IMG/VR virus record: IMGVR_UViG_3300021963_000081
Coordinates: 1 to 64,000 of that record
Origin: a virus
Strand: one strand, 5' to 3'
Length of the DNA stretch: 64,000 bases
In this document: positions 44,749 through 59,333 of the stretch, piece by piece
How positions within the stretch are numbered: position 1 is the first letter of the stretch
Layout: every line of letters starts with the position of its first letter
Position numbers and translations under genes: made by a program
Notes under the pieces: model-generated
Databases searched by the model: none
What the model was told of the DNA's origin: nothing
What the model saw: the letters and a program-made list of their open reading frames with translations, nothing else

Positions 44749-44764
44749 TTTCTAGGAAAAAAAC

Positions 44765-47700
44765 ATGGCAATTAAAACAGAATACGGAACAGTAGTTGTT
44801 GACACAAATCTAGTTCCTTATATGAGACCTATAGATATCGAGTTTACTGCTCGAAATCTCAAGCCATATAAAATCGGTAGTGTCTTTTTCGACGACATCG
44901 CCGTTAATCGCTTTTGTCAAGTTGGCAATAAAGTAGAAATTGATGCAAAGAAAGTTATTGCAATTACTTCAAATACGGCAACAGCACCAACCTCTGGTCA
45001 ATTAGTATACCAAGGATCGTCAAACGAAGCCGCATCATTTACCGCAACTGTTGATGCATATTATTCTGGTAACACAACGGTAATCCTTCGTTCGTTATCT
45101 GGAAATTTTGATGATACAGCTTCGTTGTTTATTGAAAATGGTTCTGGTGCAACTTATGCAAATGCAAGAATTGTCACTGTAAACGATTTCAATACATCAG
45201 ATTCTTTCTATGCTGGAGAAGGTGTTATTTCTCCACAATCAAATACGTTTGCGACAGTTATCGCAACGACTGGTGATGATGTTGTTTATCTAAATCAAAA
45301 TTATCATAATATTAATGTTGTTGCAACCAGCGGTTCTACGCTTGCCGATTATACTAGTAAGTTTAAGGTTGGTGATCTTGTATTCCAAACTGCAGATGGT
45401 CAAAACAGATATGACCTTGCAGCATTCCGCGGACATGTTGAATACATTAACACGACTGGTGGAGCAATTGCAATTCGTCCAATCGACGGAACATTAGTTG
45501 CTAATGCCACAAGCACTTCGACGAATGCAAACGCCAGACTCTGGTGTGTTACCGATACATCTTCGCCTAAACCACTCCACCTAAACTCATTTAATCTTTC
45601 TGGTTTTCCAGTAGATTCTTATCTTAAGAGCGTCGCAAACTCTGCAAACATTAAGATTATGGCATACACACATACATCAGGTGTGCTTGCAAATACATTA
45701 AATTCTGGATTGACACAAGTATTGCTTCCAACCAGTGCAAACACCTCAGGTGCTGCTGGCAATTTGATTTACTTTACTTCTGGAACATCAGCTGGATCTT
45801 TAAAACTAATTACAGCTGTAAGTGGAAGAACTGTAACTCTTGATTCAGCACTTGACCTAGATTACTCTTCAAATACAACATATTCTATTGGTAATTTTAT
45901 TGTTGATGATACTGGTTGCCTTGCTGGTGTGTTCAGCGTTCCAGCATATCCTGGATTTAAGTTTAAAACTGGTAATCGTGTATTAACAATCACTGACACT
46001 TCAACTGTAAGCGATCCAGATTACGCAATGCGCGCAGCTGGTTCATTTGTTGCAAGTGGCATATTAAAGACAACTCAAAGAATTCAAACAACACCAACAC
46101 TTCCACCTCTCCCTGAAGTGGATTCTGATGCGCTTGTTCGTCCAATTTCTCCAGCTGATAGATCGTATAATGCGGATGCAGTTAAAAATCCATCAACATC
46201 TTCTACTGGCTCAACGACACCAAGAATCAGCCTCGGAGATGGTTTGTCTCAAACATTCTTTACACCACGTCCAAAATCAAGCGCAAACAAGCAAGATTAT
46301 GGTATGTTCGTAAGTTCTGTTGATCTATTCTTTAAGAGTAAGCCATCAACATCTCTTGGTGCGATGCAGCTTCCAATCACATTGAAGATTGCAGAAGTTC
46401 AAAATGGTTATCCAACAAAGAACTATCTTGCTGCTAAGACAATTCAATGTAAGGATGTTAAGATTTCTACAGTTCCAAGCACGTCAAATACTTCAACTGT
46501 CACAAAGTTTACATTTGATGATCCAGTATTCTTAGAACCAGCTCGCGAATATGCGCTTGTTCTCGGATCTGACTCTCCAGATTATGAAGTATTCGTTGCA
46601 GAACTAGGTGCAGATGTTCTTGGTGCTACACCAACTCGTCGTATTTCCGAGCAGCCATACGCTGGTTCATTCTTCCGCTCACAAAACTCATCAACCTGGA
46701 CACCATATCAGAATCAAGATTTGATGTTTGTGATTAATAAAGCAGTGTTTTTTAATTCTGGAGACGGCACTGCAAGATTTACACTCGATGAAGCACCAGA
46801 AGCAAATAACTTTGTTGATAAAGTTATCTTGATGGCTTCTGATCTTGACTTCCCAGTGACTGACCTTTCTTACAGCCTTCGTGGTGTTTACGCAAACGGA
46901 TCTGGTCAAACTCAAGAAAGTGTCAGCGGTGTTGAATTGACTAAATTCTCGCCAGTTGAATATGGAACTATTCTTGATAAGTCAAATAAAACATCTATCA
47001 ATCGTCGTAAATTGCTCAAAGGCAACGCAAACAGCTTTATTTTAACAGTAACTATGTCAACAGGCGATGCTGATATTTCTCCAGTAGTAAATATCGAAAG
47101 ACTTGGTCTTACTGCATCTCGCTTCTTGATTAATAATGCTGGCATTCCAAATACTCAAATTTCTCTTTTGAGTTATGGTAGTGGATATAACGCAACGATC
47201 ACTTCTGCTAATGTTTCAAATGCTCAAGAAAATGTATTTGGAACTTCAGTTTCGACGTTAGTCGCAAATGCTGCGCTATATCGCCAATATATCTTTGCTA
47301 ATAACGCAAATATTGGTTTCTATGCAATCAATATTGCTGGTGGCGGTGGCTCTGGTGCAACTGGTTTCGCTGTTGCAAATACTGACGGTCAAAATACTGT
47401 CAACTACGTTGTTATTACCGATCCAGGCAGCGGATATCTAACCACTCCAACGATTCGAATCGTTTCTGGTAATGCAACACCAAATTCGAATGCAACAGCA
47501 GTAGTCGCTGGAGAAACAGGCAAATCTGGTGGTAATATCCAGGCGAAGTATGTAACTCGAGAAATTGTTCTAGAAGATGGCTTCGAGTCTGGTGATATTC
47601 GTGTGTTTATGGACGCGATCCGCCCAACTGGAACAGATGTCAATGTTTACTATAAAGTTAAATCAGTAGACGATAATGATCGCTTTAGCGATAAAAGCTG

Positions 47701-47935
47701 GCAGTTAATGTTCAAATATAAGGACATTTACTCTAAGAGTCCTAGATCTCTTATTGGTTTAGAGTTTAGACCAGACTTATTAGAAAACAGACTTTCATAT
47801 GTTGAAAATGGAGTTACTTACCCTATTGGCGGTAAATTTAAGTCCTTTGCGATTAAGGTTGTATTGACCTCTTCTGATCCATCATTAGTACCTAAAGTTA
47901 GAAATCTTCGTATTATTGCGACCCCAGAAGGTTAA
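44765..47935 (+). CDS. VrlC-like virion structural protein (C-terminal part)
   Basis: VPYMRPIDIEF.ARNLKP, LSQTFF, VSSVDLFFKSK, TKFTFDDPVFL, GSFFRSQNSSTWTP.Q..DL.F, PKVRNLRIIA. Confidence 0.82.
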   Translation: MAIKTEYGTVVVDTNLVPYMRPIDIEFTARNLKPYKIGSVFFDDIAVNRFCQVGNKVEIDAKKVIAITSNTATAPTSGQLVYQGSSNEAASFTATVDAYYSGNTTVILRSLSGNFDDTASLFIENGSGATYANARIVTVNDFNTSDSFYAGEGVISPQSNTFATVIATTGDDVVYLNQNYHNINVVATSGSTLADYTSKFKVGDLVFQTADGQNRYDLAAFRGHVEYINTTGGAIAIRPIDGTLVANATSTSTNANARLWCVTDTSSPKPLHLNSFNLSGFPVDSYLKSVANSANIKIMAYTHTSGVLANTLNSGLTQVLLPTSANTSGAAGNLIYFTSGTSAGSLKLITAVSGRTVTLDSALDLDYSSNTTYSIGNFIVDDTGCLAGVFSVPAYPGFKFKTGNRVLTITDTSTVSDPDYAMRAAGSFVASGILKTTQRIQTTPTLPPLPEVDSDALVRPISPADRSYNADAVKNPSTSSTGSTTPRISLGDGLSQTFFTPRPKSSANKQDYGMFVSSVDLFFKSKPSTSLGAMQLPITLKIAEVQNGYPTKNYLAAKTIQCKDVKISTVPSTSNTSTVTKFTFDDPVFLEPAREYALVLGSDSPDYEVFVAELGADVLGATPTRRISEQPYAGSFFRSQNSSTWTPYQNQDLMFVINKAVFFNSGDGTARFTLDEAPEANNFVDKVILMASDLDFPVTDLSYSLRGVYANGSGQTQESVSGVELTKFSPVEYGTILDKSNKTSINRRKLLKGNANSFILTVTMSTGDADISPVVNIERLGLTASRFLINNAGIPNTQISLLSYGSGYNATITSANVSNAQENVFGTSVSTLVANAALYRQYIFANNANIGFYAINIAGGGGSGATGFAVANTDGQNTVNYVVITDPGSGYLTTPTIRIVSGNATPNSNATAVVAGETGKSGGNIQAKYVTREIVLEDGFESGDIRVFMDAIRPTGTDVNVYYKVKSVDDNDRFSDKSWQLMFKYKDIYSKSPRSLIGLEFRPDLLENRLSYVENGVTYPIGGKFKSFAIKVVLTSSDPSLVPKVRNLRIIATPEG

Positions 47936-47937
47936 TT

Positions 47938-48162
47938 ATGTCGAAAGCAAGGATTGAAGGAAGCCCTAATTTCATAAAAGACGAAAGAAACATTGCTGTG
48001 TTAAATACGAATAAAGCCGTTATTGCTAAACATGAGCAAAAAATGGCTGAACTTCGTAGAAATAAGCAGGTTGACGACGACATAAATAATCTGAAATCTG
48101 AAGTTTCAGACATAAAAGATATGCTTTCCCAAATTTTAAAAGCCGTTAGTGGCGAGAAGTAG
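47938..48162 (+). CDS. Small coiled-coil protein
   Basis: AVLNTN...INNLKSEVSDIKDMLSQIL, a type usually found after VrlC-like genes. Confidence 0.75.
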   Translation: MSKARIEGSPNFIKDERNIAVLNTNKAVIAKHEQKMAELRRNKQVDDDINNLKSEVSDIKDMLSQILKAVSGEK

Positions 48163-48164
48163 AC

Positions 48165-50954
48165 ATGGCAAATACAGTTAATGTAGGCATTACAACAACA
48201 GCCTGTACTTTCAATCAGTGGCGTATCACCGACAATCTCATGGCGAACGACGTCAACGAGATTGCTCGTGGCAATTTCGTGAAGGCGACTGGAAATGTTA
48301 CCATTTCTAATGGATTCCTTCTTCTTGCAAACTCCTCTGGTGGCGTTATTCTAGATGTTCGTGATGATACGAACATCGACGGAACACTTACCGTAAAAGA
48401 TATCGAAGTTGATAACTCAACTGGTCACGTCTATGTTGATGCTGGCGATATCTGGTTCCGTCGTATGGGCTCGGCAGATCGTTTCTGGAGCAACACGAAC
48501 ACAACATTCTTCTGTTCTAATGTTTCTGTAACAAACGCAGAAGTCGGAACTTTGAATGTAAACAATCAGATGGTGACGGTAAATACCTCCATCTTTAATG
48601 TTGCAAATACTAATCTTGCAGCAACGATGAACGTCCACCCAGCCAATGTTTGGGTATTTGGCGCAAACTTAACTATTCAGAATACTTCTTCTGGATCTTT
48701 AAATGTCTTTAATAGACTATTGCACGTTAACTCTGGTAATTCGTTCTTCGGAAATACTTCTGCGCTTGCAACATTCAATGTCCATCCAGCAAATGTCAAT
48801 TTCTTCGGCACGAATGTAACCGTATCGAATACAACTGCTGGATCACTAAACGTTGATAATCGTCTTGTGATGGTTACAACGCCAAATATTTTCTTCTCAA
48901 ATACTCACTCATCAGCCAGATTTAATGTAAATCCAAATACTTACTTCCATGGCGGTGAGGTAAATGTTGCAAATACTGCGCTTACTTCTACTGTAAACGT
49001 CCATACTGGTAATGTATTCTTCTTCAGCGGAAATGTTACAGTATCAAATACAACTGGTGGCTCTCTAAATGTCGACAATAGACTTGTTATGGTGACAACA
49101 CCTAACATCTATTTCTCGAATACACATTCTTCTGCTCGCTTCAATGTAAATCCAAACACCTTCTTTACTGGTGGCGAAGTCAACGTATCAAATACGGCAT
49201 TGACTTCTACAATGAACGTTCACCCTGCAAATGTTTGGTTCTTTGGTGCAAATGTAACAGTATCAAACACCAGCGATGGTTCATTTAATGTTGATAATCG
49301 TTTGGTCAGAGTAACATCACCAAATGTGATCTATGCAAACACTCATGCTTCCGCAAGATTCAATGTATTCCCAAATACATTCTTCCATGGTGGATTAGTA
49401 AACGTTGCAAACACTTCACAATTTGCTACCGTTAACATTACACCAAACACTTGGATTTTTGCAAACCTAAACGTTGGATCAAACCTTGAAGTCACTGCAA
49501 ACACTTTCTTGTATTCGAACCTAGCGGTATCTAAGAATACACTAATTTCTCAAAATGCAAACGTCGTTGGAACATTCAATGTAACTTCTACTGCTGAAGT
49601 AACTGGAAACACTTCGCTCTATTCAAACCTCGCTGTATCTAAGAATACAACGATGTCGCAAAACGCGAATGTATCTGGTACGATGAATGTTGGTTCAATA
49701 CTAGCAGTCACTGGCAACACTGAACTTCTATCCAACCTTGCGGTTTCTAAGAATACGACGTTGAGCCAAAACGCTAATGTCCTAGGAACTCTCAATGTAA
49801 CATCTTTCCTCGATGTTGGTGCAAATACAGCGATTGCTGGCAATTTAGCGGTATCACGGAACACCTCTACTGGTAACTTGAGTGTTACACAAAATGTCGC
49901 TGCTGGAAATATTGCTGCAGCAAATGCTGTTTTTACAAATAATCTAGCAGCAGGAAATCTTTCTGTTTCTGGTCTATCTAACTCTACTTGCGCAAACATT
50001 ACTACGCTTTGGGTTCAAGACCTAACAGTACAGAATGCCATTGCTGCTCCTGCAACAACGACAGGTTCTGAATATAGATTGCGCGTTAGCCAAGGTTCAC
50101 GCCAAGATGGTTTCTTTGGCGTTGGACTTGGAACTACTGCAAATGGTAATGCATGGTTAAGATTTGATACTTCAGCTGGCAATGTTTGGCGTGCAACGGC
50201 AAATAGCACTGAAGGAACTTACTATACGATTATTACGCGCCAAAATGTATCTGATGATGTTGCAACAACTGATTCATCAAATGTTGCATCACTCACTGCA
50301 GTTAGAATCGCGAATGCAAATGCTCTTGCTGCGTTGGCTGCGGCAAACTCAGGAGCCAATTCTGTTTGGGTCTATGCTTACGGTGGTTCTGTTCTTTCGA
50401 ACGCAAATCTAAACTTCATCAATACTGCTTCTGTGAATGCATTTGCTGCTGCAAATGGTTCAACTCAAGCCAACGTATCGTTTGCAATGAACACTGCAAA
50501 CATTGTGGCAATTGGTACTGGCGCAGCTGCTCTTACGATTTCGCCAAACACTACGATTTCTCAAAATCTAACTGTAAGCGGTAATCTAACTGTCACAGGA
50601 AATATTACTGGTACATTGAAGTCGACAAAAGACTCGCTCACAACTGCTACGGTTTCAGGTGCGACGACTGTTAACTTGAATAACGGTAACTGGTTTAGAT
50701 ATACATTGACAGGAACTCCAACGTTTACATTCGCGAATGCTCCAGCCTCTGGAAATGCAATGACAGTAACGTTGTTAGTATTGCAAAACGGAACAGGAGG
50801 ATATACGCCAGCTTGGGGTAATACAATCTACTGGGCAGGTGGTCAAGTGCCTCCTGCATCTACTGGAGCGAATAAACTTGATATGTGGACATTCACAACA
50901 ACAGATGGTGGAAGTACGTTTATCGGAACATTGGCTGTTAAAGACGCGAGATAA
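48165..50954 (+). CDS. Tail-fibre-like protein with beta-repeats and C-terminal fibre-tip domain
   Basis: TFNQWR N-terminus; ~65-aa and ~40-aa Asn/Val/Thr repeats; C-terminal VNLNNGNWF..TLTG..TFTF.N.P...W...I.WAGG..P...DMWTF.T.DGG. Confidence 0.75.
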   Translation: MANTVNVGITTTACTFNQWRITDNLMANDVNEIARGNFVKATGNVTISNGFLLLANSSGGVILDVRDDTNIDGTLTVKDIEVDNSTGHVYVDAGDIWFRRMGSADRFWSNTNTTFFCSNVSVTNAEVGTLNVNNQMVTVNTSIFNVANTNLAATMNVHPANVWVFGANLTIQNTSSGSLNVFNRLLHVNSGNSFFGNTSALATFNVHPANVNFFGTNVTVSNTTAGSLNVDNRLVMVTTPNIFFSNTHSSARFNVNPNTYFHGGEVNVANTALTSTVNVHTGNVFFFSGNVTVSNTTGGSLNVDNRLVMVTTPNIYFSNTHSSARFNVNPNTFFTGGEVNVSNTALTSTMNVHPANVWFFGANVTVSNTSDGSFNVDNRLVRVTSPNVIYANTHASARFNVFPNTFFHGGLVNVANTSQFATVNITPNTWIFANLNVGSNLEVTANTFLYSNLAVSKNTLISQNANVVGTFNVTSTAEVTGNTSLYSNLAVSKNTTMSQNANVSGTMNVGSILAVTGNTELLSNLAVSKNTTLSQNANVLGTLNVTSFLDVGANTAIAGNLAVSRNTSTGNLSVTQNVAAGNIAAANAVFTNNLAAGNLSVSGLSNSTCANITTLWVQDLTVQNAIAAPATTTGSEYRLRVSQGSRQDGFFGVGLGTTANGNAWLRFDTSAGNVWRATANSTEGTYYTIITRQNVSDDVATTDSSNVASLTAVRIANANALAALAAANSGANSVWVYAYGGSVLSNANLNFINTASVNAFAAANGSTQANVSFAMNTANIVAIGTGAAALTISPNTTISQNLTVSGNLTVTGNITGTLKSTKDSLTTATVSGATTVNLNNGNWFRYTLTGTPTFTFANAPASGNAMTVTLLVLQNGTGGYTPAWGNTIYWAGGQVPPASTGANKLDMWTFTTTDGGSTFIGTLAVKDAR

Positions 50955-50959
50955 TCGCC

Positions 50960-53041
50960 ATGCCAAGACCGTTTGAATTAAATAAAACGTGGATAGTTGG
51001 ACCATCTAGAGGCACAACCTCATTCAATGCACCAAGCAGCATCACCATTGATTATGGTCGTCATGTTGCTTCAGTCTCAGGTCGCGGTGGGTCAGGAAAT
51101 GCGCCTGCAGCTGCCACTTGGGTGACGAATTATAATACCAATTATAACGTTGCATATCCAATTGCAAATCAACCAGCTGTTGCTTGGACCATCAATTATA
51201 GTAGCAATTATAATGTTGCGTATCCGATTGCGACTCAGCCAGAAGCAGCACGTCCAGGTACAGCATGGACAATTAACTATAATGCTGCTGTGTATCCAAT
51301 CGCTAATCAACCAGAAGCAGCTCGACCAGCAGCTGCTTGGACGATTAACTACACTTCAAATTATAATATTGCTTATCCAGAAGCAGGTCGCCCTGTCACT
51401 GCATGGGTAATTAATTATAATTCAAATTACAACGTTGCTTATCCAGAAGCAGCAAGACCTGTTACTGCTTGGACGATCAATTACAACACTAACTACAATG
51501 TTGCTTATCCGATTGCGGCGCAACCAGAAGTTGCTAGACCATCAACTGCTTGGACCATCAATTATAATGTTGCATATCCAGAAGCCGCTAGACCAGTAAC
51601 TGCTTGGACAATCAATTACAATGCTGCTGTGTATCCGATTGCAAATAGACCAGAGGCTGCTCGACCAGCAACAGCATGGACAATTAACTATAACGTAGCA
51701 TACCCAGAGGCAGGTCGACCACCAACAGCTTGGGTTATTAATTATAACACAAATTACAACGTTGCATATCCAGAAGCTGCTCGTCCTGTAAGTGCATGGA
51801 CGATCAATTATAACACCAACTATAATGTCGCATATCCGATTGCGAACCAACCTGTTGCTGGTGTTGATTGGTTTAGAACATGGTCGGTTAATGGGTTTCC
51901 ATATGTATTTTCTGTAGAACCAATTGAAGTTGGGAATTCGCAAAATGCACTCACTCCACTTCCTGCATATGGAAGTAGCCCTAATCTTCCAGGAAGCCCA
52001 GAAACCATCGGAAACTTTAATTTTATGCCTGATGGTCAATTTGGTGAGTTGAGTGCTCAATATTCTTTACTTGGCACAAATTACAATACCAACTATAACG
52101 TAGCATATCCAGTGGCTACCAGACCAGAAGCTGCTCGACCAGCAACTGCTTGGACGATTAACTATAATACTGCTGTGTATCCGATTGCAACTAGACCAGA
52201 AGCCAACCGCCCAGTTACTGCATGGACGATCACTTATAACACAGTAAGACCAGAAGCAACTCGTCCTGCAACTGCTTGGACTATCAATTACAATACCAAC
52301 TATAATGTTGCCTATCCAGAAGCAACTAGACCAGCGACTGCTTGGACTATTAACTATAACGTAGTATATCCAGAAGCAACTCGACCAGCGACTGCTTGGA
52401 CAATTAACTACAATACCAATTACAACGTCGCATACCCAATCGCAACACAACCAGAAGCTGCGCGTCCAGCCACTGCTTGGACTATCAACTACAATACAGT
52501 ATATCCAATCGCAACACAACCAGAGGCGGCTCGTCCAGGAACTGCGTGGACAATTACTTACAATGCTGCTGTATATCCAATTGCCAATCAACCAGAAGCA
52601 ACAAGACCAGTGACTGCCTGGACGATCAATTATAACACGAATTATAATGTGGCATACCCAGAAGCTGCTCGCCCAGCGACTGCTTGGACCATTAATTACA
52701 ATACAAACTATAATGTTGCATATCCGATCGCCAATCAACCAGAAGCGGCTCGACCAGCGACAGTATACAACACCAATTATAATATCGCATATCCAATTGC
52801 CAGTCAGCCGATCGCCAATCAACCGATCACATCTTATGCACCAGGAAATGTGGGAACACCAACTAATGTTCTTGGCGTTTACTTCCCAGGTGGTCCAATA
52901 GATCTTTCAGGATTTGGTGGTCCTTCAGGAACTGCTCCTTATGTTCCGTCAACTGAAGTAGTCTACTGGAGTTTCCCAGACTTCCAAAATCATCCAGTTA
53001 GTGTTCCTCCAGGTGGGTCAATCGACGTTAACATTGAATAA
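50960..53041 (+). CDS. Self-complementary repeat protein A (base - 11 repeats - knob - 11 repeats - base)
   Basis: 693-aa ORF made of TINY/NTNY/NVAY and PIANQ/PEAAR/PATAW units; unique centre at about 51863-52072. Confidence 0.9.
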   Translation: MPRPFELNKTWIVGPSRGTTSFNAPSSITIDYGRHVASVSGRGGSGNAPAAATWVTNYNTNYNVAYPIANQPAVAWTINYSSNYNVAYPIATQPEAARPGTAWTINYNAAVYPIANQPEAARPAAAWTINYTSNYNIAYPEAGRPVTAWVINYNSNYNVAYPEAARPVTAWTINYNTNYNVAYPIAAQPEVARPSTAWTINYNVAYPEAARPVTAWTINYNAAVYPIANRPEAARPATAWTINYNVAYPEAGRPPTAWVINYNTNYNVAYPEAARPVSAWTINYNTNYNVAYPIANQPVAGVDWFRTWSVNGFPYVFSVEPIEVGNSQNALTPLPAYGSSPNLPGSPETIGNFNFMPDGQFGELSAQYSLLGTNYNTNYNVAYPVATRPEAARPATAWTINYNTAVYPIATRPEANRPVTAWTITYNTVRPEATRPATAWTINYNTNYNVAYPEATRPATAWTINYNVVYPEATRPATAWTINYNTNYNVAYPIATQPEAARPATAWTINYNTVYPIATQPEAARPGTAWTITYNAAVYPIANQPEATRPVTAWTINYNTNYNVAYPEAARPATAWTINYNTNYNVAYPIANQPEAARPATVYNTNYNIAYPIASQPIANQPITSYAPGNVGTPTNVLGVYFPGGPIDLSGFGGPSGTAPYVPSTEVVYWSFPDFQNHPVSVPPGGSIDVNIE

Positions 53042-55062
53042 TAGAAACGAATAAATAAGTACAATGCCTTTGGGTATTGGTGCCCATTTCTGGAAAAATA
53101 ATGCCAAAAAGTTCCGATTTAAGTAAAAGCTGGCTGGGCGGAAGTTCTCGTGGAACACAAACGTTTAATGCGCCTTCGTCTCTAACGATTCCATACGGTC
53201 GTTACATTGGTAACGTCACAGGTCGTGGTGGATCTGGCAATGCACCAACAGCTTCTGCGTGGACGATCAACTATAATACAAATTATAACGTAGCATATCC
53301 GATTGCGAATCAACCAGAGGCAGCGAGACCACCAACTGCTTGGACGATTAATTATAATACTAACTATAATGTTGCATACCCAGAAGCTGCACGTCCAGTA
53401 ACTGCTTGGACGATCAATTACAATACGAATTACAACGTCGCTTATCCATTAGCGAATCAGCCAGAAGCCGCTAGACCAGCGACTGCTTGGACAATTAATT
53501 ATAATACTAACTATAACGTTGCTTACCCAATCGCCAATAGACCAGAAGCGGCTAGACCAGCAACAACATGGTCAGTGAACTACAACGTTGCTTATCCGAT
53601 TGCGACACAACCAGAAGCGACTCGACCTGTAACCGCATATACTTCTAACTACAACGTTGCATATCCAATTGCTAACCAGCCAGCAAATGCTTGGACGATT
53701 AATTATAATACTAACTACAACGTTGCATATCCAATTGCTAACCAGCCAGCAAATGCTTGGACGATTAATTATAATACTAACTACAACGTTGCATATCCAA
53801 TAGCAAATAGACCAGAAGCTGCACGACCAGCAACAGCGTGGGTGATCAATTACAACACAAACTACAACGTTGCATATCCAATTGCGAATAGACCAGAAGC
53901 CGCAAGACCAGTGACTGCTTGGTCAACTAACTACAACGTCGCATATCCAGTTGCGAATCAGCCAGAAGCCGCAAGACCTGTGACTGCATATTCAACGAAT
54001 TATAATGTCGCGTATCCAGTGGCTAATCAGCCGATTGCCAATCAGCCAGTTGCCAACTATAATCCACCGAACGCTTATTTCTCCAATTACGTGGTGAACG
54101 CTACCGTATACGGTCCGTACGGTTACAACACGTTTTATGATTATGGATACTATGGTCCTGGATGTCCATCAGCGACATACGAAACGTATTATGATCCTTA
54201 TTTTAATTATTATATAACAGTATACACAACTTTTCCATGCACTGGTTCAGGAAATAGCGCAAATTATAACACAAACTATAACACCAACTACAACGTTGCA
54301 TACCCGATTGCCAATCAACCAGCCAATGCATGGGTGATCAATTACAATACTAATTACAACGTTGCATATCCAATCTCGACGCAGCCAGCCAATGCTTGGG
54401 TAATTAATTATAACACCAACTATAACGTTGCGTATCCGATTGCCAATCAGCCAGAAGCAGCAAGACCTGTTACTGCATGGGTAATTAATTACAATACCAA
54501 TTATAATGTCGCGTACCCAATTGCGACCCAACCAGAAGCTGCTCGTCCCGTTACAGCATGGTCAACAAATTATAACGTTGCGTACCCAATCGCCAATAGA
54601 CCAGAAGCAGCTCGACCAGTCACTGCTTGGTCAACTAACTACAACGTTGCTTATCCGCTCGCAAATCAACCAGCGACTGCATGGACTATCAACTATAATA
54701 CAAATTATAACGTAGCATACCCAGAAGCAAATCGTCCTGTTAATGCTTGGACAATTAACTACAATACCAATTACAACGTCGCTTATCCATTAGCGAATCA
54801 GCCAGAAGCCGCTAGACCTGCTACCGCATGGACCATCAATTATAATTCAAACTATAACGTGGCGTACCCAATCGCAACACAACCAGAAGCAGCAAGACCT
54901 GCTACCACTTGGACTATCAACTACAATACAGTATATCCAATCGCCACGCAGCCAGAAGCTGCCAGACCACCAACTGCTTGGACCATCAATTATAACACCA
55001 ATTACAACGTTGCTTACCCAATTGCCAATCAACCAGAAGCAGCAAGACCAGTGACAACATAT
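51122..55062 (+). repeat. 44 degenerate coding repeats (18-27 aa) in four arms
   Basis: Arms at about 51122-51862, 52073-52837, 53263-54060 and 54259-55062; heavy synonymous divergence. Confidence 0.9.
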
Positions 55063-55266
55063 TCTCCAGGAAACACTGGATCGCCAACCAATGTTCTTGG
55101 TGTCACTTTCCCAGGTGGACCAATTGATCTCTCAGGCTTTGCTGGTCCTCCAGGAACTGCTCCTACTGTTGGTCCAACACAAGTAAGTTATTACAGTTAT
55201 CCTGACGGCGCAAATTATCCTGTTTCTGTTCCTCCAGGTGGACAAATAGTTGTAACACTCGCATAA
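53101..55266 (+). CDS. Self-complementary repeat protein B, paralogue of A
   Basis: ATG 53101 aligns with the start of A (MPKSS/MPRPF); same units; Tyr-rich centre with two Cys at about 54061-54258. Confidence 0.9.
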   Translation: MPKSSDLSKSWLGGSSRGTQTFNAPSSLTIPYGRYIGNVTGRGGSGNAPTASAWTINYNTNYNVAYPIANQPEAARPPTAWTINYNTNYNVAYPEAARPVTAWTINYNTNYNVAYPLANQPEAARPATAWTINYNTNYNVAYPIANRPEAARPATTWSVNYNVAYPIATQPEATRPVTAYTSNYNVAYPIANQPANAWTINYNTNYNVAYPIANQPANAWTINYNTNYNVAYPIANRPEAARPATAWVINYNTNYNVAYPIANRPEAARPVTAWSTNYNVAYPVANQPEAARPVTAYSTNYNVAYPVANQPIANQPVANYNPPNAYFSNYVVNATVYGPYGYNTFYDYGYYGPGCPSATYETYYDPYFNYYITVYTTFPCTGSGNSANYNTNYNTNYNVAYPIANQPANAWVINYNTNYNVAYPISTQPANAWVINYNTNYNVAYPIANQPEAARPVTAWVINYNTNYNVAYPIATQPEAARPVTAWSTNYNVAYPIANRPEAARPVTAWSTNYNVAYPLANQPATAWTINYNTNYNVAYPEANRPVNAWTINYNTNYNVAYPLANQPEAARPATAWTINYNSNYNVAYPIATQPEAARPATTWTINYNTVYPIATQPEAARPPTAWTINYNTNYNVAYPIANQPEAARPVTTYSPGNTGSPTNVLGVTFPGGPIDLSGFAGPPGTAPTVGPTQVSYYSYPDGANYPVSVPPGGQIVVTLA

Positions 55267-55316
55267 ATAGTTTATAATATAATTTTGTTTTCGCAATAAC
55301 ATTTGAGGTGGTCATT

Positions 55317-55919
55317 ATGCCGTATCCTATTCCTCAGTATAACAAAATGCTGAATGAGTTCTGTGTTGCCAATGGAGCATTCACAGAAGAAGAAGTTGAT
55401 AAAATTGTTGATTTAGAAGATTTGCAAAAGTTTCAGCGCGGAGGAATTGGCGGAACTGGCGGTCCTGGGTCGGTCGACAAAAAAGTCCGCGACAGTGATG
55501 TGCAGTGGATAATGCACGACCAACATTCAGATTGGTTATTCCAAAAATTTGCTTATCTGACCTCAATGGTCAATTACGATCACTTCATGTATAATATTGA
55601 CGGTTTTGATAATTTTCAATACACTGTTTATCGCGCAAAAACAAAACAACATTATGATTGGCATATGGATGCTGGTGGACCATGGACACCGTATGTCAGA
55701 AAACTCAGTGCAGTAATTATTCTTTCAGATCCAGATGATTATGAAGGTGGAGAATTCCAGTGTGTTCTTAATGGTCAAGTAGAAAATCTAATGACAGTTA
55801 AGCCACCTCGTGGTGACGCAATCTTTTTCCCAGCTTGGATGCCCCATAGAGTAACACCAGTAACAAAAGGTGTTCGCAAATCATTGGTCTCTTGGGTGAT
55901 GGGTAAAAGAGAAAAATAA
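55317..55919 (+). CDS. 2OG-Fe(II) oxygenase (prolyl-hydroxylase-like)
   Basis: QYTVY, HYDWHMD, RKLSAVIILSDPDDYEGGEF, FFPAWMPHRVTPVTKGVRKSLVSW. Confidence 0.9.
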   Translation: MPYPIPQYNKMLNEFCVANGAFTEEEVDKIVDLEDLQKFQRGGIGGTGGPGSVDKKVRDSDVQWIMHDQHSDWLFQKFAYLTSMVNYDHFMYNIDGFDNFQYTVYRAKTKQHYDWHMDAGGPWTPYVRKLSAVIILSDPDDYEGGEFQCVLNGQVENLMTVKPPRGDAIFFPAWMPHRVTPVTKGVRKSLVSWVMGKREK

Positions 55920-55931
55920 TTGGTTATTAAT

Positions 55932-56675
55932 ATGAATTTTAAAAAATTGGTGAAGTTCTGGGGTAATGATATCATTGAGTTTTATACAACACCAGATTTA
56001 ATTGAGGTCATTCCTGAACCGAGATCAGCAGTCAAAAATCTTCCAGAATGGTTTAAAGATTTAAGTCCTGCTTATGGGGCTGCAGATAATCAAAGAGATC
56101 AATTTGGCAATAAAAATATGACGGCAAAAAAGTGTTTGCCAATGCTAGATGCAATGTCTCTTGGATACACAATTCCCCTTGCAGCAGACCTTCATATCAT
56201 GAGCAACCACGATAATACTCAAATACATGTAACCAATCCTCCAGGATTAAAAGTTTGCGAGTTTCATGATGCAATGCAACTTGGTGGAAATAATAAACTC
56301 GGATTTAAACATGGAAACGCATTAAAATTTATAAATTATTGGCATATAAAGACAGCACCAGGTTGGTCTATTCTATTCACACCTCCATTCAATCATTTTG
56401 CACAACCATTTACTTGTTTAAGTGGATTTGTTGACACTGACGTTTATAGCAACGTTGTGAATTTTCCTGCTGTATTGAACATCTATGATGCAGATATACA
56501 TATACCTGCAGGCACTCCTATGGTCACAGCAATACCTGTAAAAAGAAATTCTTTTCCGAAAAAACCGCCTATTCGTAAGATGACGAAAAAAGAAGCCATG
56601 GAATTGCAAAAATTGCGAAGACGACAAGATACTAGAACTCATCACTATACCTATGAGTTGAGAAAGAGGGATTAA
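55932..56675 (+). CDS. Conserved phage protein of unknown function (possibly dUTPase-like beta fold)
   Basis: LPEWFK, TAKKCLPMLDAMSLGYTIP, WHIKTAPGWSILF, GFVDTD, IPAGTPMV.AIP. Confidence 0.7.
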   Translation: MNFKKLVKFWGNDIIEFYTTPDLIEVIPEPRSAVKNLPEWFKDLSPAYGAADNQRDQFGNKNMTAKKCLPMLDAMSLGYTIPLAADLHIMSNHDNTQIHVTNPPGLKVCEFHDAMQLGGNNKLGFKHGNALKFINYWHIKTAPGWSILFTPPFNHFAQPFTCLSGFVDTDVYSNVVNFPAVLNIYDADIHIPAGTPMVTAIPVKRNSFPKKPPIRKMTKKEAMELQKLRRRQDTRTHHYTYELRKRD

Positions 56676-56677
56676 TC

Positions 56678-57418
56678 ATGTTTAATTGGTTTAAGAAAGA
56701 TGATATTGATTTTAAATTTCTTGATGTTGCAGAAGGAATTGTATATCCACATTATCCACCAGTATTAGCAAAAGATATCAAGCCTCTTAAAGAATTTCAA
56801 GAAAACAAATATGGAGAATATAAATTTCCTGGTTGTCCAGGAATGCATGATTATGCTCGTTTAGGTTATATTATTCCTGCATGGAGCAATATTCATATCA
56901 AAGCAAACAAAGCTGGATTTATGGGAGTTGTAGGTTCTGTTGGTGAAGACAATCAAAAAAGGGGCACACAACTAAAACAACCCCAAAATATGGATACTGC
57001 TATTACAGATGGTCTTTTTGAAATCAATGGTGGAGTTAAATATAGTGTCTTAAATTTTCCTGGTCCATGGAAAATTAATTCTAATAAAAACGTCTCTTGT
57101 TTGTTGCTCCCTGCATACTTCCATAGCAATTTTCTAGACGATTTATATGTGTATCCAGGAATAGTAGACTATAAAGGATTTGGTACAGTAAATTTCATTT
57201 GCGCCCCAAAACGTCCATGTGAAATAGAAATTAAGGCTGGTGACCCTCTTTTGCATGTCATTCCATTTATAACAAATAAAGACATTGTTGCTTCTTATGG
57301 TCCTGCGACAAGAGAAGAAAATGATTACAATAAGATATTAAAGTGGTTTCATGAAAAGAATTTCTACAGAAAGTATTACATGATCCGTAAAAAATTTAAA
57401 CTGGTAAAAGATGTATGA
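56678..57418 (+). CDS. Paralogue of 55932-56675
   Basis: CPGMHDYARLGYIIPAW, PWKI, PGIVD, IKAGDPLLHVIP. Confidence 0.7.
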   Translation: MFNWFKKDDIDFKFLDVAEGIVYPHYPPVLAKDIKPLKEFQENKYGEYKFPGCPGMHDYARLGYIIPAWSNIHIKANKAGFMGVVGSVGEDNQKRGTQLKQPQNMDTAITDGLFEINGGVKYSVLNFPGPWKINSNKNVSCLLLPAYFHSNFLDDLYVYPGIVDYKGFGTVNFICAPKRPCEIEIKAGDPLLHVIPFITNKDIVASYGPATREENDYNKILKWFHEKNFYRKYYMIRKKFKLVKDV

Positions 57419-58368
57419 AAAAGATATTTGTAAACGTTTGCTCATATAGAGATAAACTTCTATTGCCTACAATCGAAAGTCTGATTGAAAATGAGTCAGG
57501 CAGAAATGAGATTGTCTATGGTGTTTTTGAGCAAACATCTCTTGCAGATAGTTTACAAACCAAAGCACCAGATCTGGTAAAAAAGACAAACATTCGATAT
57601 AAAAGAATTGATCCAGAATTTTCTGATGGTGTTGTTTGGGCGCGTTCTATTAATTCAATGCAGATCTATGAAGAAGAGTTTCAGTATCAAATCGACTCTC
57701 ACATGCTCTTTGATAAGGGGTGGGATCATTATCTAATTCTAGATTATTTGCATGCGTGTAAAGTTGCAGGACATGATCGAGTTCTTCTAACATGTGGAAC
57801 TAAAAACTTTGATCTTGATGGTGATCGAATTACCAAGCATACATTGACCGATGACATCTCAGTGAATCTTGGATATTATCAGTTTGATAAAAACATGAGA
57901 CTACACGCTCATGGTCCATGGGTTCCTGCTCGAGATGTAGTAAGTCCCTCTCGCCATATCTGCGCTGGTAACTTCTTTGCTCCAGCAAAATGGGTGAAGG
58001 AAGTTGGGTATAATACAAATATCTTCTTCGAAGGCGAAGAACAGATGTTTGCTCTTACTTCCTTCCTCAAGGGGTATAGCATTTATCATATGAGACGCGC
58101 GAAGGTTTATCATTATCTTCGTTCTGCGAATCACGAGACTAAACAGACCGTCAATCCAGTGGTCGATGCAAGACGATTGGATATGAATAAGAAACGATCT
58201 GAGAAAGAACTCAGTAACTTTATCTATTCTGTCGACGAAGCCAAGCTGGAAGAGTTTCGAAAACACACGGGAGTCGATTATATAAATAGGAAATTAGAGG
58301 AACGCGCAATTTCTCGCCATATTAAACCAGACGTAGAGATCGATTGGGAAATCCCGAATAAAGAGTAA
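57415..58368 (+). CDS. GT60-like (Skp1-hydroxyproline-type) GlcNAc transferase
   Basis: KIFVNVCSYRD, GVFEQ, GVVWAR, YQIDSHMLFDKGWD, AGNFF, FFEGEEQ, YHYL. Confidence 0.8.
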   Translation: MKKIFVNVCSYRDKLLLPTIESLIENESGRNEIVYGVFEQTSLADSLQTKAPDLVKKTNIRYKRIDPEFSDGVVWARSINSMQIYEEEFQYQIDSHMLFDKGWDHYLILDYLHACKVAGHDRVLLTCGTKNFDLDGDRITKHTLTDDISVNLGYYQFDKNMRLHAHGPWVPARDVVSPSRHICAGNFFAPAKWVKEVGYNTNIFFEGEEQMFALTSFLKGYSIYHMRRAKVYHYLRSANHETKQTVNPVVDARRLDMNKKRSEKELSNFIYSVDEAKLEEFRKHTGVDYINRKLEERAISRHIKPDVEIDWEIPNKE

Positions 58369-58369
58369 A

Positions 58370-58927
58370 ATGGCATCTAATACAAAAATATCTTTTTCAA
58401 AATATACTAAAGGTGTTGGTTGCCCGAACGAAGGGTGTCTAATTCCTCTGAGTGGAACTTCTGGTTTGTGGCAGCATTTTCCTTCAAATACAAACCATTT
58501 ATTTCTCGTTATCAATGGTAATATAAGAACAGAGTACCAAGATGGTGCAGTTCAAACGCACACCAATCCATACTCAAATACATGGAGTTCTTATGTCGAT
58601 CCATGGATCTATGATAAACCTGTGCAGGCTTATACGCGCTCCGATGATGATATCTTTGTAAGAGTTTCTCTAATTAATACGACCTTTTCTCAGATTACCT
58701 TTAGTGCTGCGAAGATCGTTAACGAAGAAATCACAAAAACGACTAACAAACGATCCTTTTTGTATGTTTGTGGATCAGAGTTTTCCTACAAAAAAGATAA
58801 CGTCGAAATCACTCCTGAAACTTCTGGAATGAGTTTTGGGTATGGTCAAATGGCTGGGAACACCATAACACATTCGATTACCGCCAACTCCAGCCCAGTA
58901 ACAGTGATCTTTATCGAAGAGAATTAG
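58370..58927 (+). CDS. Hypothetical beta-rich protein
   Basis: 185-aa ORF; TATAAATA at 58281 upstream. Confidence 0.65.
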   Translation: MASNTKISFSKYTKGVGCPNEGCLIPLSGTSGLWQHFPSNTNHLFLVINGNIRTEYQDGAVQTHTNPYSNTWSSYVDPWIYDKPVQAYTRSDDDIFVRVSLINTTFSQITFSAAKIVNEEITKTTNKRSFLYVCGSEFSYKKDNVEITPETSGMSFGYGQMAGNTITHSITANSSPVTVIFIEEN

Positions 58928-58965
58928 TATTAAATATTACTCTGCTCTGGTGTGGATTTCTATTT

Positions 58966-58973
58966 TATAAATA
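58966..58973 (+). promoter_or_regulatory. T4-type late promoter (further copies at 30686, 40028, 58281)
   Basis: TATAAATA 24 nt upstream of ATG 58998. Confidence 0.7.
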
Positions 58974-58997
58974 GAGCAATAATAATAGGATATCCCA

Positions 58998-59333
58998 ATG
59001 GCTCAATTTATAGAATTAGACCTGGATCAAGGAACTGATTTCAATTTTGATTTAGACTTGACTCAAGATGACGGATCAGTCATAAACGTGACGAATTACA
59101 CGTTTTCTTCGTCCATACGAAAATCCTTTTATTCATCTGGCGTCACAGCAAATCTAACTGTGACGATACTCGACGCTGCAAATGGGAACGTTTTTCTAAA
59201 CCTCAATGCGGCAACAACCTCGAATATTAAAGCAGGTCGTTATTTGTTTGATGTCAAACAAATCGATAATGCTAATGTCACAACAAGACTTGTTGAGGGC
59301 ATCATCACAGTTAATCCGCAGGTAACTAAATGA
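58998..59333 (+). CDS. Small Ig-like/BppU-N-like structural adaptor
   Basis: [30 protein letters not shown]; precedes the fibre gene. Confidence 0.75.

What the first reader, a model, noticed from the sequence alone, without database searches (positions are those of the whole stretch)
51863..54258. Unrelated ~65-70-aa knobs at the hairpin apex on a shared split base domain: stalk-and-knob adhesins?
A and B share N-terminal (RGTxxFNAPSSxTIxYGR...V(S/T)GRGGSGNAP) and C-terminal (PGNxGxPTNVLGVxFPGGPIDLSGF...PVSVPPGGxIxV) segments that look like two halves of one Gly-rich-type phage domain. Their centres are unrelated: A is aromatic/Pro-rich (51863-52072); B is very Tyr-rich with a Cys pair (54061-54258). 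They directly follow a fibre gene, as gp38 adhesins follow gp37 in T2-type phages. Inference: alternative receptor-binding tips on long stalks, like bovine ultralong CDR-H3, swappable by recombination in the flanking repeats.
Basis: partly seen in the sequence, partly recalled or inferred. Interest (0 to 1): 0.75.

Follow-up and report, generated by a model that had tools for sequence, protein, structure and literature searches.

The report
Hairpin-stalk phage fibres with swappable tips
Two neighbouring genes of an uncultured aquatic T4-like phage encode proteins that appear to fold back on themselves into a long two-armed stalk carrying an exchangeable tip, which is probably the part that recognises the host cell.

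Summary
Gene A (50960-53041) and gene B (53101-55266) share a conserved N-terminal piece (31 of 50 residues identical) and C-terminal piece (47 of 69). Each has two long repeat arms around a central ~70-aa knob, and the two knobs show no detectable similarity.

The chain most likely runs out and back. In 70 relatives the two arm lengths scale 1:1 from about 0 to 340 aa (r=0.99). In A and B, long or short Tyr/Asn strands of one arm face long or short Pro-rich linkers of the other in mirror order (20 of 22).

The knobs are exchangeable cassettes. A relative that is 95-98% identical differs only by replacement of window 51853-52101. Other pairs keep 97-100% identical flanks around 20-41% identical centres.

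Receptor binding is inferred from hypervariability and from the position just after a tail-fibre gene; it is not shown. The family has no Pfam, PHROG or PDB match and is absent from 50,697 phage records. The Gly-rich-domain and gp38 memberships fail. The closest known design is the T4 gp37 needle. First-stage notes of this scan record a similar out-and-back protein on another genome.

The parts
48165..50954 (+). Upstream fibre gene (929 aa) with a repeat shaft and a C-terminal tail-fibre-like domain. It ends 6 nt before gene A.
   Evidence: PHROG tail-fibre families phrog_9017 and phrog_7760 match aa 800-925, and there is a bactofilin-like repeat hit. A homologue lies upstream of the hairpin genes in 21 of 25 loci.
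50960..53041 (+). Gene A, a hairpin-stalk protein of 693 aa (base type IDYGRH).
   Evidence: No Pfam or PHROG family above cut-off.
50960..51109 (+). A N-terminal half of the base (aa 1-50, ...RGTTSFNAPSSITIDYGR...GRGGSGN).
   Evidence: 31/50 identical to B. The motif is conserved across the family.
51110..51844 (+). A arm 1 (aa 51-295, 11 units of 18-27 aa).
   Evidence: Unit listing; strand and linker lengths; mirror tests.
51845..52075 (+). A knob (aa 296-372), the non-Cys type.
   Evidence: Knob cluster 1, 10 of 54 proteins. It is 75-80% identical to the knob of P0002, which sits on a 49-55% identical scaffold. No Pfam or PDB hit.
51853..52101 (+). Segment replaced by an unrelated 207-nt Cys-type knob in the otherwise 95-98% identical relative L009.
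   Evidence: blastn blocks 44001-51852 (97.95%) and 52102-59830 (94.8%) flank the break. Identity falls gradually through the arms toward it.
52076..52831 (+). A arm 2 (aa 373-624, 11 units), in mirror order to arm 1.
52832..53038 (+). A C-terminal half of the base (aa 625-693, PGNxGxPTNVLGVxFPGG...PVSVPPGG).
   Evidence: 47/69 identical to B. A profile of this part finds 143 clusters in 1.84 billion representatives.
53101..55266 (+). Gene B, a hairpin-stalk protein of 721 aa counted from ATG 53101 (base type IPYGRY). The ORF list starts it at TTG 53077.
   Evidence: The ATG start mirrors the A N-terminus and those of relatives.
53101..53250 (+). B N-terminal half of the base (aa 1-50).
53251..54051 (+). 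B arm 1 (aa 51-317, 11 units, with a higher-order 117-aa period).
54052..54258 (+). B knob (aa 318-386), the Tyr-rich Cys-pair type (CPxP ... C).
   Evidence: Knob cluster 0, 29 of 54 proteins. The Cys pair is conserved in 70 family proteins, with a median spacing of 26 aa. Against L009, dN is 0.167 and dS 0.115 in the knob, while the arms have dN/dS of 0.05-0.2.
54259..55056 (+). B arm 2 (aa 387-652, 11 units).
55057..55263 (+). B C-terminal half of the base (aa 653-721).

Best explanation
A and B are paralogous fibre-like structural proteins of an uncultured aquatic T4-like myophage. They are encoded at the start of the host-recognition cluster, directly after a tail-fibre gene.

Proposed structure:
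- The chain leaves a conserved base made from its own N- and C-terminal pieces.
- It runs out along arm 1, forms a ~70-aa knob at the far end, and returns along arm 2, antiparallel and in register.
- The register is set by a simple length rule. Each amphipathic Tyr/Asn strand (aromatic residue every 4th position; 13 or 9-10 aa) lies beside a Pro-rich linker of the other arm (Pro every 5th position; 14 or 9 aa).
- Removing one NTNY turn in one arm is therefore matched by removing one xxxxP turn in the other.
- Stalk length is adjustable, from 0 to ~340 aa per arm across the family.

Proposed function:
- The knob is the exposed, host-specific tip.
- It diversifies by point substitution and by whole-cassette exchange, using recombination within the conserved arm repeats.

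Shown here: the architecture, the arm-length law, the mirror compensation, the cassette exchange and the synteny.

Inferred: that the pairing is within one chain, that the base is one domain docked on the virion, that the knob binds a receptor, and the oligomeric state (possibly a trimer, as in other fibres).
For: 1. Arm lengths. In 70 non-identical proteins with both base motifs and exactly two Cys, the distance from N-base to Cys1 tracks the distance from Cys2 to C-base. Pearson r is 0.990, slope 1.03 and residual SD 12.9 aa, over 23-376 and 11-339 aa. An independent knob-finding method on 54 proteins gave r=0.95.
2. Minimal members. P0104 (170 aa) and P0096 (194 aa) have the base plus a Cys-pair knob and no arms. 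The arms are therefore paired insertions on either side of the knob.
3. Mirror order by YP-landmark spacing.
   - A: mirror 39, direct 93, shuffle mean 66.6, p=0.015.
   - B: mirror 12, shuffle mean 42, p=0.011.
   - Family: mirror fits better than direct in 35 of 38 proteins. Mirror p<0.05 in 20 of 38; direct p<0.05 in 2 of 38.
   - Best-match position between the arms is negatively correlated in 41 of 53 proteins.
4. Strand-versus-linker compensation.
   - A is 20/22 concordant in the mirror register. Other mirror registers give 6-13 of 18-21 and direct order gives 5-14 of 20-22. Permutation P=1.5e-4.
   - B is 20/22, P=7.5e-4.
   - A different 14-unit code in L010, L011, L012 and L020 gives 0.93-0.96 in mirror against 0.62-0.65 direct.
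   - By eye, all 21 pairs fit in both A and B.
5. Unit consensus from 105 distinct 27-mers: aromatic at positions 2, 6, 10 and 14, Asn at 7, 9 and 11, Pro at 15, 20 and 25. Some of these positions were fixed by the search pattern.
6. Cassette exchange.
   - L009 is collinear at 97.95% and 94.8% except for window 51853-52101.
   - Flank / centre / flank identities are 99/21/97 (A versus L009), 99/41/99, 99/21/98, 100/20/98, 99/29/99 and 97/23/97.
   - Conversely, the A knob is 76% identical to P0002 on flanks that are 55% and 49% identical.
7. Selection. The B knob has dN/dS of about 1.45, against 0.05-0.2 in the arms.
8. Context. The order VrlC-like, p74, fibre, hairpin gene(s), 2OG oxygenase is conserved in 25 loci. 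This region is described as the host recognition cluster of pelagi- and cyanomyophages (PMC7029224, passages read).
9. Precedent. T4 gp37 has a stem-plus-tip domain inserted into a split collar domain (PMC6957217, passages read).
Against: - No structure prediction could be run, so no fold, oligomer or base association has been seen.
- Nothing shows that A or B is in virions or binds anything.
- In B, direct order fits as well as mirror order (20/22 both ways), because its 5-unit super-repeat is nearly palindromic.
- The long/short classifier is significant in only 8 of 35 family proteins at p<0.01 (11 of 35 at p<0.05). Direct order scores higher in 11 of 35. These are mostly clades whose units the classifier does not parse.
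- By the best-match method, A itself shows no mirror signal (rho +0.12).
- P0001 is asymmetric (arms 66 versus 199 aa).
- A distant variant (L028/L029) has three knobs and a Hint domain splitting the gene, and does not fit a single hairpin.
- The relatives are phylogenetically related, so the counts are not independent.
- Short-read contigs break inside the arms, so unit numbers in metagenome assemblies could be wrong, although L009 reproduces them.
Confidence: 0.6

Rival explanations
1. The arms pair between chains, not within one chain. Two or more copies lie antiparallel, so arm 1 of one chain zips to arm 2 of another. This gives a rod with a base at each end and the knobs in the middle.
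For: Every sequence signal found here is equally expected for an antiparallel homodimer. This applies to equal arm lengths, mirror order, strand-linker compensation and co-conserved termini. The L028/L029 variant is split into two polypeptide-coding ORFs inside an arm, which shows that the pairing could work between chains.
Against: A hypervariable, cassette-swapped element is more plausible at an exposed tip than buried mid-rod. Armless 170-190 aa members are complete proteins of base plus knob. The known precedent, gp37, is intramolecular. None of this is decisive.
Confidence: 0.1
2. The hairpin stalk is real, but the proteins are not primary receptor binders. They could be accessory whiskers or sensors, decoration fibres or assembly factors, with the knob varying for other reasons such as escape from host or grazer recognition.
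For: No receptor-binding domain family is detected in either knob. The upstream fibre has its own tail-fibre-like C-terminal domain. Two paralogues per genome is the rule.
Against: Variation is localised at the distal apex, dN/dS is raised there, and whole cassettes move between scaffolds. That is the pattern usually seen in phage host-range determinants (general knowledge). The genes sit in the region called the host recognition cluster.
Confidence: 0.15
3. The arms are unpaired, extended spacers of the mucin or extensin type, rich in Pro. The neighbouring 2OG oxygenase and GlcNAc-transferase-like enzymes would hydroxylate and glycosylate them. Arm symmetry would then be a by-product of how the repeats expand.
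For: A PF13640 oxygenase and a PF11397 transferase lie just downstream. The oxygenase follows the hairpin genes in 22 of 25 loci, and extra copies sit next to extra hairpin genes in L025, L029 and L030. Pro is invariant at three positions per unit.
Against: Unpaired spacers give no reason for a 1:1 arm-length law. They also give no reason for long strands to face long linkers in mirror order with P~1e-4. Repeat expansion alone produces direct order, not mirror order. Modification and pairing are not mutually exclusive.
Confidence: 0.07
4. The repeat architecture is an assembly artefact of short-read metagenomes.
For: Logan contigs of three DNA runs break repeatedly inside the arms and show many repeat-to-repeat joints.
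Against: The unit pattern is identical in an independent assembly from another sample (L009). The same architecture recurs in 27 viral contigs and in more than 100 protein clusters from several sources. The repeats are only 71-97% identical at DNA level. Contigs in two other runs span the A knob plus adjoining arm with 0 differences over 877 nt.
Confidence: 0.03

Closest known systems
T4 gp37 distal tip (collar domain D10 with the inserted needle D11: stem plus tip)
   Same: The topological logic is the same. The base domain is made of two separated chain segments (811-881 and 1010-1026). An elongated insertion has a stem with an outgoing half (882-931) and a returning half (960-1009), and a small receptor-contacting tip (932-959) sits at the apex (PMC6957217, passages read). 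Both belong to the distal part of a T4-like fibre system.
   Different: There is no sequence relation: no Pfam or PDB hit. The gp37 stem arms are ~50 aa and fixed, whereas here they are 0-340 aa and built of modular repeats with compensating indels. The gp37 needle is held by His-coordinated iron ions, and the arms here show no such motif in the listed sequences. gp37 is the fibre itself, whereas here these are separate genes after the fibre gene. A trimeric state is not shown here.
T2/T6/S16-type gp38 adhesins
   Same: Each is a separate gene immediately downstream of the distal fibre gene. Each has a conserved scaffold with hypervariable parts at the distal end that determine host range (recalled knowledge; PMC12892980 seen only as a search listing and abstract).
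   Different: No Pfam family was hit, including any gp38 family. The A and B arms contain essentially no Gly, so the gp38 Gly-rich motifs and polyglycine-II sandwich (recalled) are not present. Here the whole knob is swapped, rather than loops between conserved motifs.
Bovine ultralong CDR-H3 (stalk and knob)
   Same: It has an ascending and descending two-strand stalk carrying a small, hypervariable knob with Cys residues that does the binding (recalled). The B-type knob has a conserved Cys pair.
   Different: This is an analogy only. The protein class and organism are unrelated. The stalk here is 10-20 times longer and made of repeats. The A-type knob has no Cys. Diversification is by recombination between phages, not somatic mutation.
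Pfam Gly_rich_2 (PF21722) phage glycine-rich domain
   Same: The N-terminal motif (TFNAP...IPYGR...VSGRGGSGN) and the C-terminal PVSVPPGGQIVV resemble, by eye, the strand and Gly-loop pattern of that domain (recalled pattern).
   Different: The HMM finds nothing in the record at E<=10. Pfam finds nothing in either half, or in armless family members, at E<=1-10.
Mosaic tail-fibre genes of tailed phages (host-range cassettes exchanged by recombination)
   Same: Near-identical phages differ by a replaced receptor-tip segment, and the same tip is found on divergent scaffolds. This is the general pattern known for phage fibres (general knowledge; PMC10579305 seen as an abstract only).
   Different: The exchanged unit here is an internal ~70-aa apex flanked on both sides by the protein's own repeat arms. 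In known cases it is a C-terminal domain.

Membership tests
T4 gp37-type needle tip | An elongated stem made of an outgoing and a returning segment of the same chain, with the tip at the apex. | tested here: met
   Met by sequence covariation only: the 1:1 arm law (r=0.99), the mirror order (35 of 38) and the strand-linker compensation (20/22, P=1.5e-4). No structure is available.
T4 gp37-type needle tip | A base (collar) domain formed from the two chain segments that flank the insertion. | tested here: inconclusive
   The N- and C-terminal pieces co-occur. At least 84 of 143 C-base hits carry the N-base motif by a strict pattern, and most of the rest are fragments or variants of the motif as judged by eye.
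T4 gp37-type needle tip | Sequence homology to the gp37/gp12 collar or needle, with a His-x-His iron-binding ladder. | tested here: not met
   No Pfam or PDB sequence match. No His ladder is visible in the arm units listed.
T4 gp37-type needle tip | A homotrimer. | not testable with these tools
gp38 adhesin (T2/S16 type) | A gene directly downstream of the distal fibre gene. | tested here: met
   A starts 6 nt after the fibre gene's stop. A fibre homologue lies upstream in 21 of 25 loci.
gp38 adhesin (T2/S16 type) | Sequence membership, with Gly-rich motifs alternating with hypervariable segments. | tested here: not met
   No Pfam family at E<=0.1 for the whole proteins, or at E<=10 for the parts. 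The arms and knobs lack Gly-rich motifs.
Pfam Gly_rich_2 (PF21722) | A match to the family HMM. | tested here: not met
   No match in the 86-kb record at E<=10. No hit for the base halves or for armless members.
Diversity-generating retroelement target protein | A nearby reverse transcriptase and template repeat that drive variation. | tested here: not met
   PF00078 finds nothing in the record at E<=0.01 (the record is about 50% complete). The only other matches to A in the record lie in B.
Phage receptor-binding protein (functional class) | It is present in the virion and binds a host surface receptor. | not testable with these tools
   Inferred only, from position and from the hypervariable apex.

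The most novel reading that the evidence does not exclude
The arms are a previously undescribed self-complementary protein zipper. Tyr/Asn beta-strands of one arm grip polyproline-like linkers of the returning arm, one aromatic rung per proline rung. The register is written as a mirror-image code of long and short modules. This lets evolution lengthen a receptor-binding fibre from 0 to roughly 100 nm by paired insertions while keeping a plug-in tip. The adjacent prolyl-hydroxylase-like and GlcNAc-transferase-like enzymes may modify the same prolines.
Probability: 0.3. Interest if true: 0.88.

Novelty: new variant of a known kind. Interest (0 to 1): 0.72.

Why it matters
The receptor-binding proteins of the abundant aquatic T4-like myophages (relatives of pelagi-, methylophilales- and cyanomyophages) are largely unidentified. 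PMC7029224 states that the tail-fibre proteins could not be identified (passages read).

This family offers a concrete candidate whose host-range cassette can be read directly from metagenomes. The conserved base and arms flank a ~70-aa knob that is swapped between near-identical phages. That makes knob typing, host linking and knob-swap experiments possible.

The arms are also of interest for protein architecture. A single chain appears to specify its own antiparallel register through a mirror code of module lengths, and it tolerates stalk lengths from zero to ~340 residues per arm.

Tried and rejected
**Structure tools.** Structure prediction, complex prediction and the look-up of encoding contigs were closed or unavailable. 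No fold, no fold search, no test that the termini associate and no trimer test could be run. The ESM Atlas holds A letter for letter, but has no model and gave no usable hit.

**Family assignment.**
- Pfam hits to Phage-MuB_C (B: 44 bits, with no single stretch passing), DUF7372 and a Tudor domain are repeat or composition artefacts and were rejected.
- The PDB profile hit 8ri0 (E=0.75) and Crov539 (E=2.8) were rejected as chance.
- PHROGs found nothing for A, B or 10 short members.
- INPHARED phages gave no match for the A-B DNA by megablast. tblastn also found none for A, for the C-base or for P0104.

**Knob relationship.** hhalign of 7 non-Cys knobs against 14 Cys-type knobs gave 6.7% probability. 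Only a short G-S-x-P-x-x-P-x-P stretch aligned. This is a hint, not evidence of common origin.

**A-knob search.** The search restricted to the A knob found only the P0002 cluster, and only proteins of 381-1213 aa were searched.

**Reads.**
- 24 runs were listed and 4 were laid (X4, X5, X8, X19).
- In freshwater run X8 the bins over the A knob (51956-52112) and part of the B knob had little or no cover while the arms were covered. No contig bridges these gaps, so this is not evidence of another knob.
- RNA run X19 gave five short contigs with 1-15 differences each. This does not show transcription.
- The many joints are repeat-to-repeat and uninformative.

**Host.** Pfam on 10 other window ORFs showed T4-like genes (gp32, PhoH, GMP reductase-like) and no host marker.

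**Armless forms.** The search for related loci with P0104 returned only L036, an arm-bearing relative on a 272-kb contig without the oxygenase neighbours. The genomic context of armless forms therefore remains unseen.

**Literature.** Searches found no description of this family. I claim no more than that for these four searches. Supplementary files were not opened; Table S4 of PMC7029224 (protein clusters) might list these genes.

**Promoters and terminators.** The consensus scan gave counts near the shuffle expectation and was not used.

Full report
**What is there**

The window belongs to an 86,279-nt IMG/VR virus record of a T4-like myophage. It carries gp32, PhoH, tail tube, baseplate hub and wedge genes. 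Its gp6-like wedge protein is 34-41% identical to those of the Methylophilales phage Melnitz, Pelagibacter phage HTVC008M and Synechococcus myophages.

After a split VrlC-like protein, a 74-aa virion protein and a 929-aa fibre gene with a tail-fibre-like C-terminus come two tandem paralogues:
- A, 50960-53041, 693 aa.
- B, best started at ATG 53101, 721 aa.

Each has the same five parts:
- an N-terminal piece of ~50 aa (31/50 identical between A and B);
- an arm of about 11 repeat units of 18-27 aa;
- a unique centre of ~70-77 aa;
- a second arm of about 11 units;
- a C-terminal piece of ~69 aa (47/69 identical).

They are not detectably related:
- The alignment score lies inside the shuffle distribution.
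- There is no BLASTP link.
- Profile-profile probability is 6.7%.

The B knob has 17 Tyr in 69 aa and a Cys pair. The A knob is rich in Pro, Phe and Trp.

**The family**

A word-indexed search found 31 relatives of 381-537 aa with the same layout. A scan of IMG/VR gave 27 loci, most with two tandem paralogues (base types IDYGRH and IPYGRY) of 282-854 aa.

A profile of the C-terminal piece, searched against 1.84 billion cluster representatives, found only 143 clusters at E<=1e-3 and 49 at E<=1e-10. Members run from 170 aa upward.

The shortest (P0104, 170 aa; P0096, 194 aa) are just N-base, a Cys-pair knob and C-base, with no arms. More distant members keep the base but build their arms from other Asn/Pro/Gly/Tyr-rich repeats.

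Nothing in Pfam, PHROGs or PDB sequences matches any part. The Gly_rich_2 HMM finds nothing in the record at E<=10. No GenBank phage in the 50,697-record collection matches A, its C-base or an armless member. The ESM Atlas has the sequence but no model.

**Does the chain go out and back?**

No structure tool was open, so the test had to be by sequence. Three results agree.

1. *The arms scale 1:1.* I used the two conserved Cys as objective landmarks in 70 non-identical proteins. The distance from N-base to Cys1 against the distance from Cys2 to C-base gives r=0.990, slope 1.03 and residual SD 12.9 aa, over 23-376 and 11-339 aa. The Cys-Cys spacing stays near 26 aa. A landmark-free method on 54 proteins gave r=0.95, with one clear outlier, P0001, at 66 versus 199 aa.

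2. *The order of unit types is mirrored, not repeated.*
   - With the YP dipeptide as landmark, the mirror arrangement of A scores 39, direct order 93 and shuffles 66.6 (p=0.015).
   - B scores 12, against 18 and 42 (p=0.011).
   - Over 38 testable proteins, mirror beats direct in 35. Mirror is significant in 20 and direct in 2.
   - Best-match positions between arms are negatively correlated in 41 of 53 proteins, although A itself shows no signal by that cruder measure.

3. *There is length compensation at the module level.*
   - The 27-aa unit is A-[W/Y]-T-I-N-Y-N-T-N-Y-N-V-A-Y-P-I-A-N-Q-P-E-A-x-R-P-x-T.
   - It is an amphipathic strand with an aromatic residue every fourth position and an Asn face, followed by a linker with Pro every fifth position.
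   - Strands are 13 aa or 9-10 aa (losing NTNY). Linkers are 14 aa or 9 aa (losing one xxxxP).
   - An ungapped antiparallel alignment anchored at the base puts each strand opposite a linker of the other arm.
   - In that register, long faces long and short faces short in 20 of 22 positions in A. Other mirror registers give 6-13 of 18-21 and direct order gives 5-14 of 20-22. P=1.5e-4 from 20,000 shuffles.
   - B also gives 20 of 22 (P=7.5e-4).
   - By eye, all 21 pairs fit in both proteins; the two automated misses are parsing errors at the ends.
   - A different 14-unit code in the B-type proteins of L010, L011, L012 and L020 gives 0.93-0.96 in mirror against 0.62-0.65 direct.

There are caveats:
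- B's super-repeat is nearly palindromic, so direct order fits it equally well.
- My long/short classifier is informative only in the window's clade. It reaches p<0.01 in 8 of 35 proteins, and direct order scores better in 11 of 35.
- The relatives are not independent samples.
- All of these signals would also arise from an antiparallel pairing between two chains.

**Are the knobs swappable?**

Yes.
- Locus L009 comes from another sample. It is collinear with the window at 97.95% over 44001-51852 and at 94.8% over 52102-59830. Only 51853-52101, the A knob, is replaced, by an unrelated 207-nt Cys-type knob.
- Identity is 0.99-1.00 in the neighbouring genes and the base. It declines through the arms to 0.73-0.82 at the knob edges. 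That is what recombination breakpoints scattered in the arms would give.
- In other lineages, pairs keep 97-100% identical 150-aa flanks around centres that are 20-41% identical: P0002/P0008, P0002/P0019, P0008/P0019, P0003/P0010 and L011/L020.
- Conversely, the A knob is 76% identical to that of P0002 on flanks only 49-55% identical.
- Knob cores fall into a Cys-pair class (29 of 54, including B), a non-Cys class (10, including A), smaller groups of 3 and 2, and 10 singletons. Both main classes occur on both base types.
- Between the window and L009, the B knob has 24.2 non-synonymous and 4.8 synonymous differences (dN 0.167, dS 0.115). The arms have dN/dS of 0.05-0.2.
- No reverse transcriptase is present. 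No silent knob copies are present either: the only other matches to A in the record lie in B. Exchange between phages, not an in-genome diversifier, is therefore the likely source.
- Contigs from two further runs carry the A knob and adjoining arm with 0 differences over 877 nt.

**How it most likely works**

The base (N plus C termini) anchors the protein. This may be on the preceding fibre or on the baseplate, but that is not tested. The paired arms form a thin stalk whose length is set by the number of paired units. The knob at the far end is the variable, host-facing element.

If the arms are largely extended, 250-340 residues per arm would mean several tens of nanometres. That figure is my inference and was not measured.

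The loss of one Tyr-bearing turn in one arm matches the loss of one Pro-bearing turn in the other. This suggests aromatic-proline packing between strand and linker, which is also inference.

Receptor binding is inferred from three things: the location in the region called the host recognition cluster in pelagi- and cyanomyophages (PMC7029224, passages read), the position directly after a fibre gene (21 of 25 loci have the fibre homologue upstream), and the apex-localised variation.

**Comparison with known systems**

The closest known design is the T4 gp37 tip. Its collar domain D10 is made of residues 811-881 plus 1010-1026. Domain D11 is inserted into it, with a stem (882-931 and 960-1009) and a tip (932-959) (PMC6957217, passages read).

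The present family shares that logic, but nothing else:
- There is no sequence similarity.
- The iron-binding His ladder is absent.
- The stems are repeat-built and of variable length.
- The proteins are encoded as separate genes.

The gp38 comparison holds only for gene position. The Gly-rich-domain idea fails the HMM test. The ultralong CDR-H3 comparison is an analogy.

I therefore class this as a new variant of a known kind of device: a phage fibre tip with an out-and-back stem and an exchangeable apex. It is carried by a protein family that is so far undescribed in the four literature searches I ran.

First-stage notes of this scan on the same stretch describe the mirror code and the neighbouring enzymes. 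A note on another genome describes a similar out-and-back repeat protein. My tests of arm symmetry were begun before I read them.

**Limits**
- There is no fold, no oligomeric state and no virion or binding evidence.
- Metagenome assemblies of repeats can be wrong, although L009 reproduces both unit patterns.
- One family member is asymmetric (P0001).
- One distant variant, L028/L029, has three knobs and a Hint domain splitting the gene. It does not fit the simple picture.

Noticed in passing
window 55308-58368: Directly behind B lie four genes: a PF13640 2OG-Fe(II) oxygenase (55308-55919), a DUF6065 protein (55920-56675), a 246-aa protein with no family (56678-57418) and a PF11397 GlcNAc-type glycosyltransferase (57415-58368). 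The oxygenase follows the hairpin gene(s) in 22 of 25 related loci. Extra oxygenase copies sit beside extra hairpin genes in L025, L029 and L030. The arms have three invariant Pro per unit, so they are an obvious candidate substrate. This was not tested.
   Followed up: partly
L028:10001-13602 and L029:10001-13599: This is a distant family member with three knobs (Cys type, non-Cys type, Cys type). Its first ORF ends in a Gly run followed by a Hint/intein-like domain (CCFVAGTLV...). The next ORF, overlapping by about 15 nt, continues with arm repeats and carries the C-base. The arm lengths do not close as a single hairpin.
   Followed up: partly
window 40237-47935: The large VrlC-like virion protein (phrog_358) is split into two ORFs of 1503 and 1056 aa. 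First-stage notes place a Hint domain at the split. This is the same kind of split as in the L028 hairpin gene.
   Followed up: no
window 59330-64000 (runs off the end): A giant ORF (>1557 aa) has an internal repeat region at about 59360-59840 that matches many places in its L009 homologue at 68-78%. GC rises to 0.545 in the last 2 kb of the window.
   Followed up: no
window 51542-52822 and 54247-55032, minus strand: Long antisense ORFs (172, 251 and 94 aa) lie inside the arm repeats. They are most likely by-products of the repeat codon pattern, not genes.
   Followed up: no
L031, L032, L036 (contigs of 226-272 kb): Short family members (296-361 aa, with NPGN/YNP-type arms) occur on jumbo-sized viral contigs without the oxygenase or transferase neighbours. 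In L036 a collagen-like fibre gene lies 2 kb downstream.
   Followed up: partly
window 53041-53101: The A-B intergenic spacer contains AATAAATA, one base away from the T4 late-promoter core TATAAATA (the consensus is recalled).
   Followed up: no
A and B genes across loci: Within one phage, the B-type arms are usually 30-50 aa longer than the A-type arms (for example 252/282, 206/250, 202/241, 159/199). The two lengths rise and fall together between phages, as if both fibres had to reach a related distance.
   Followed up: no
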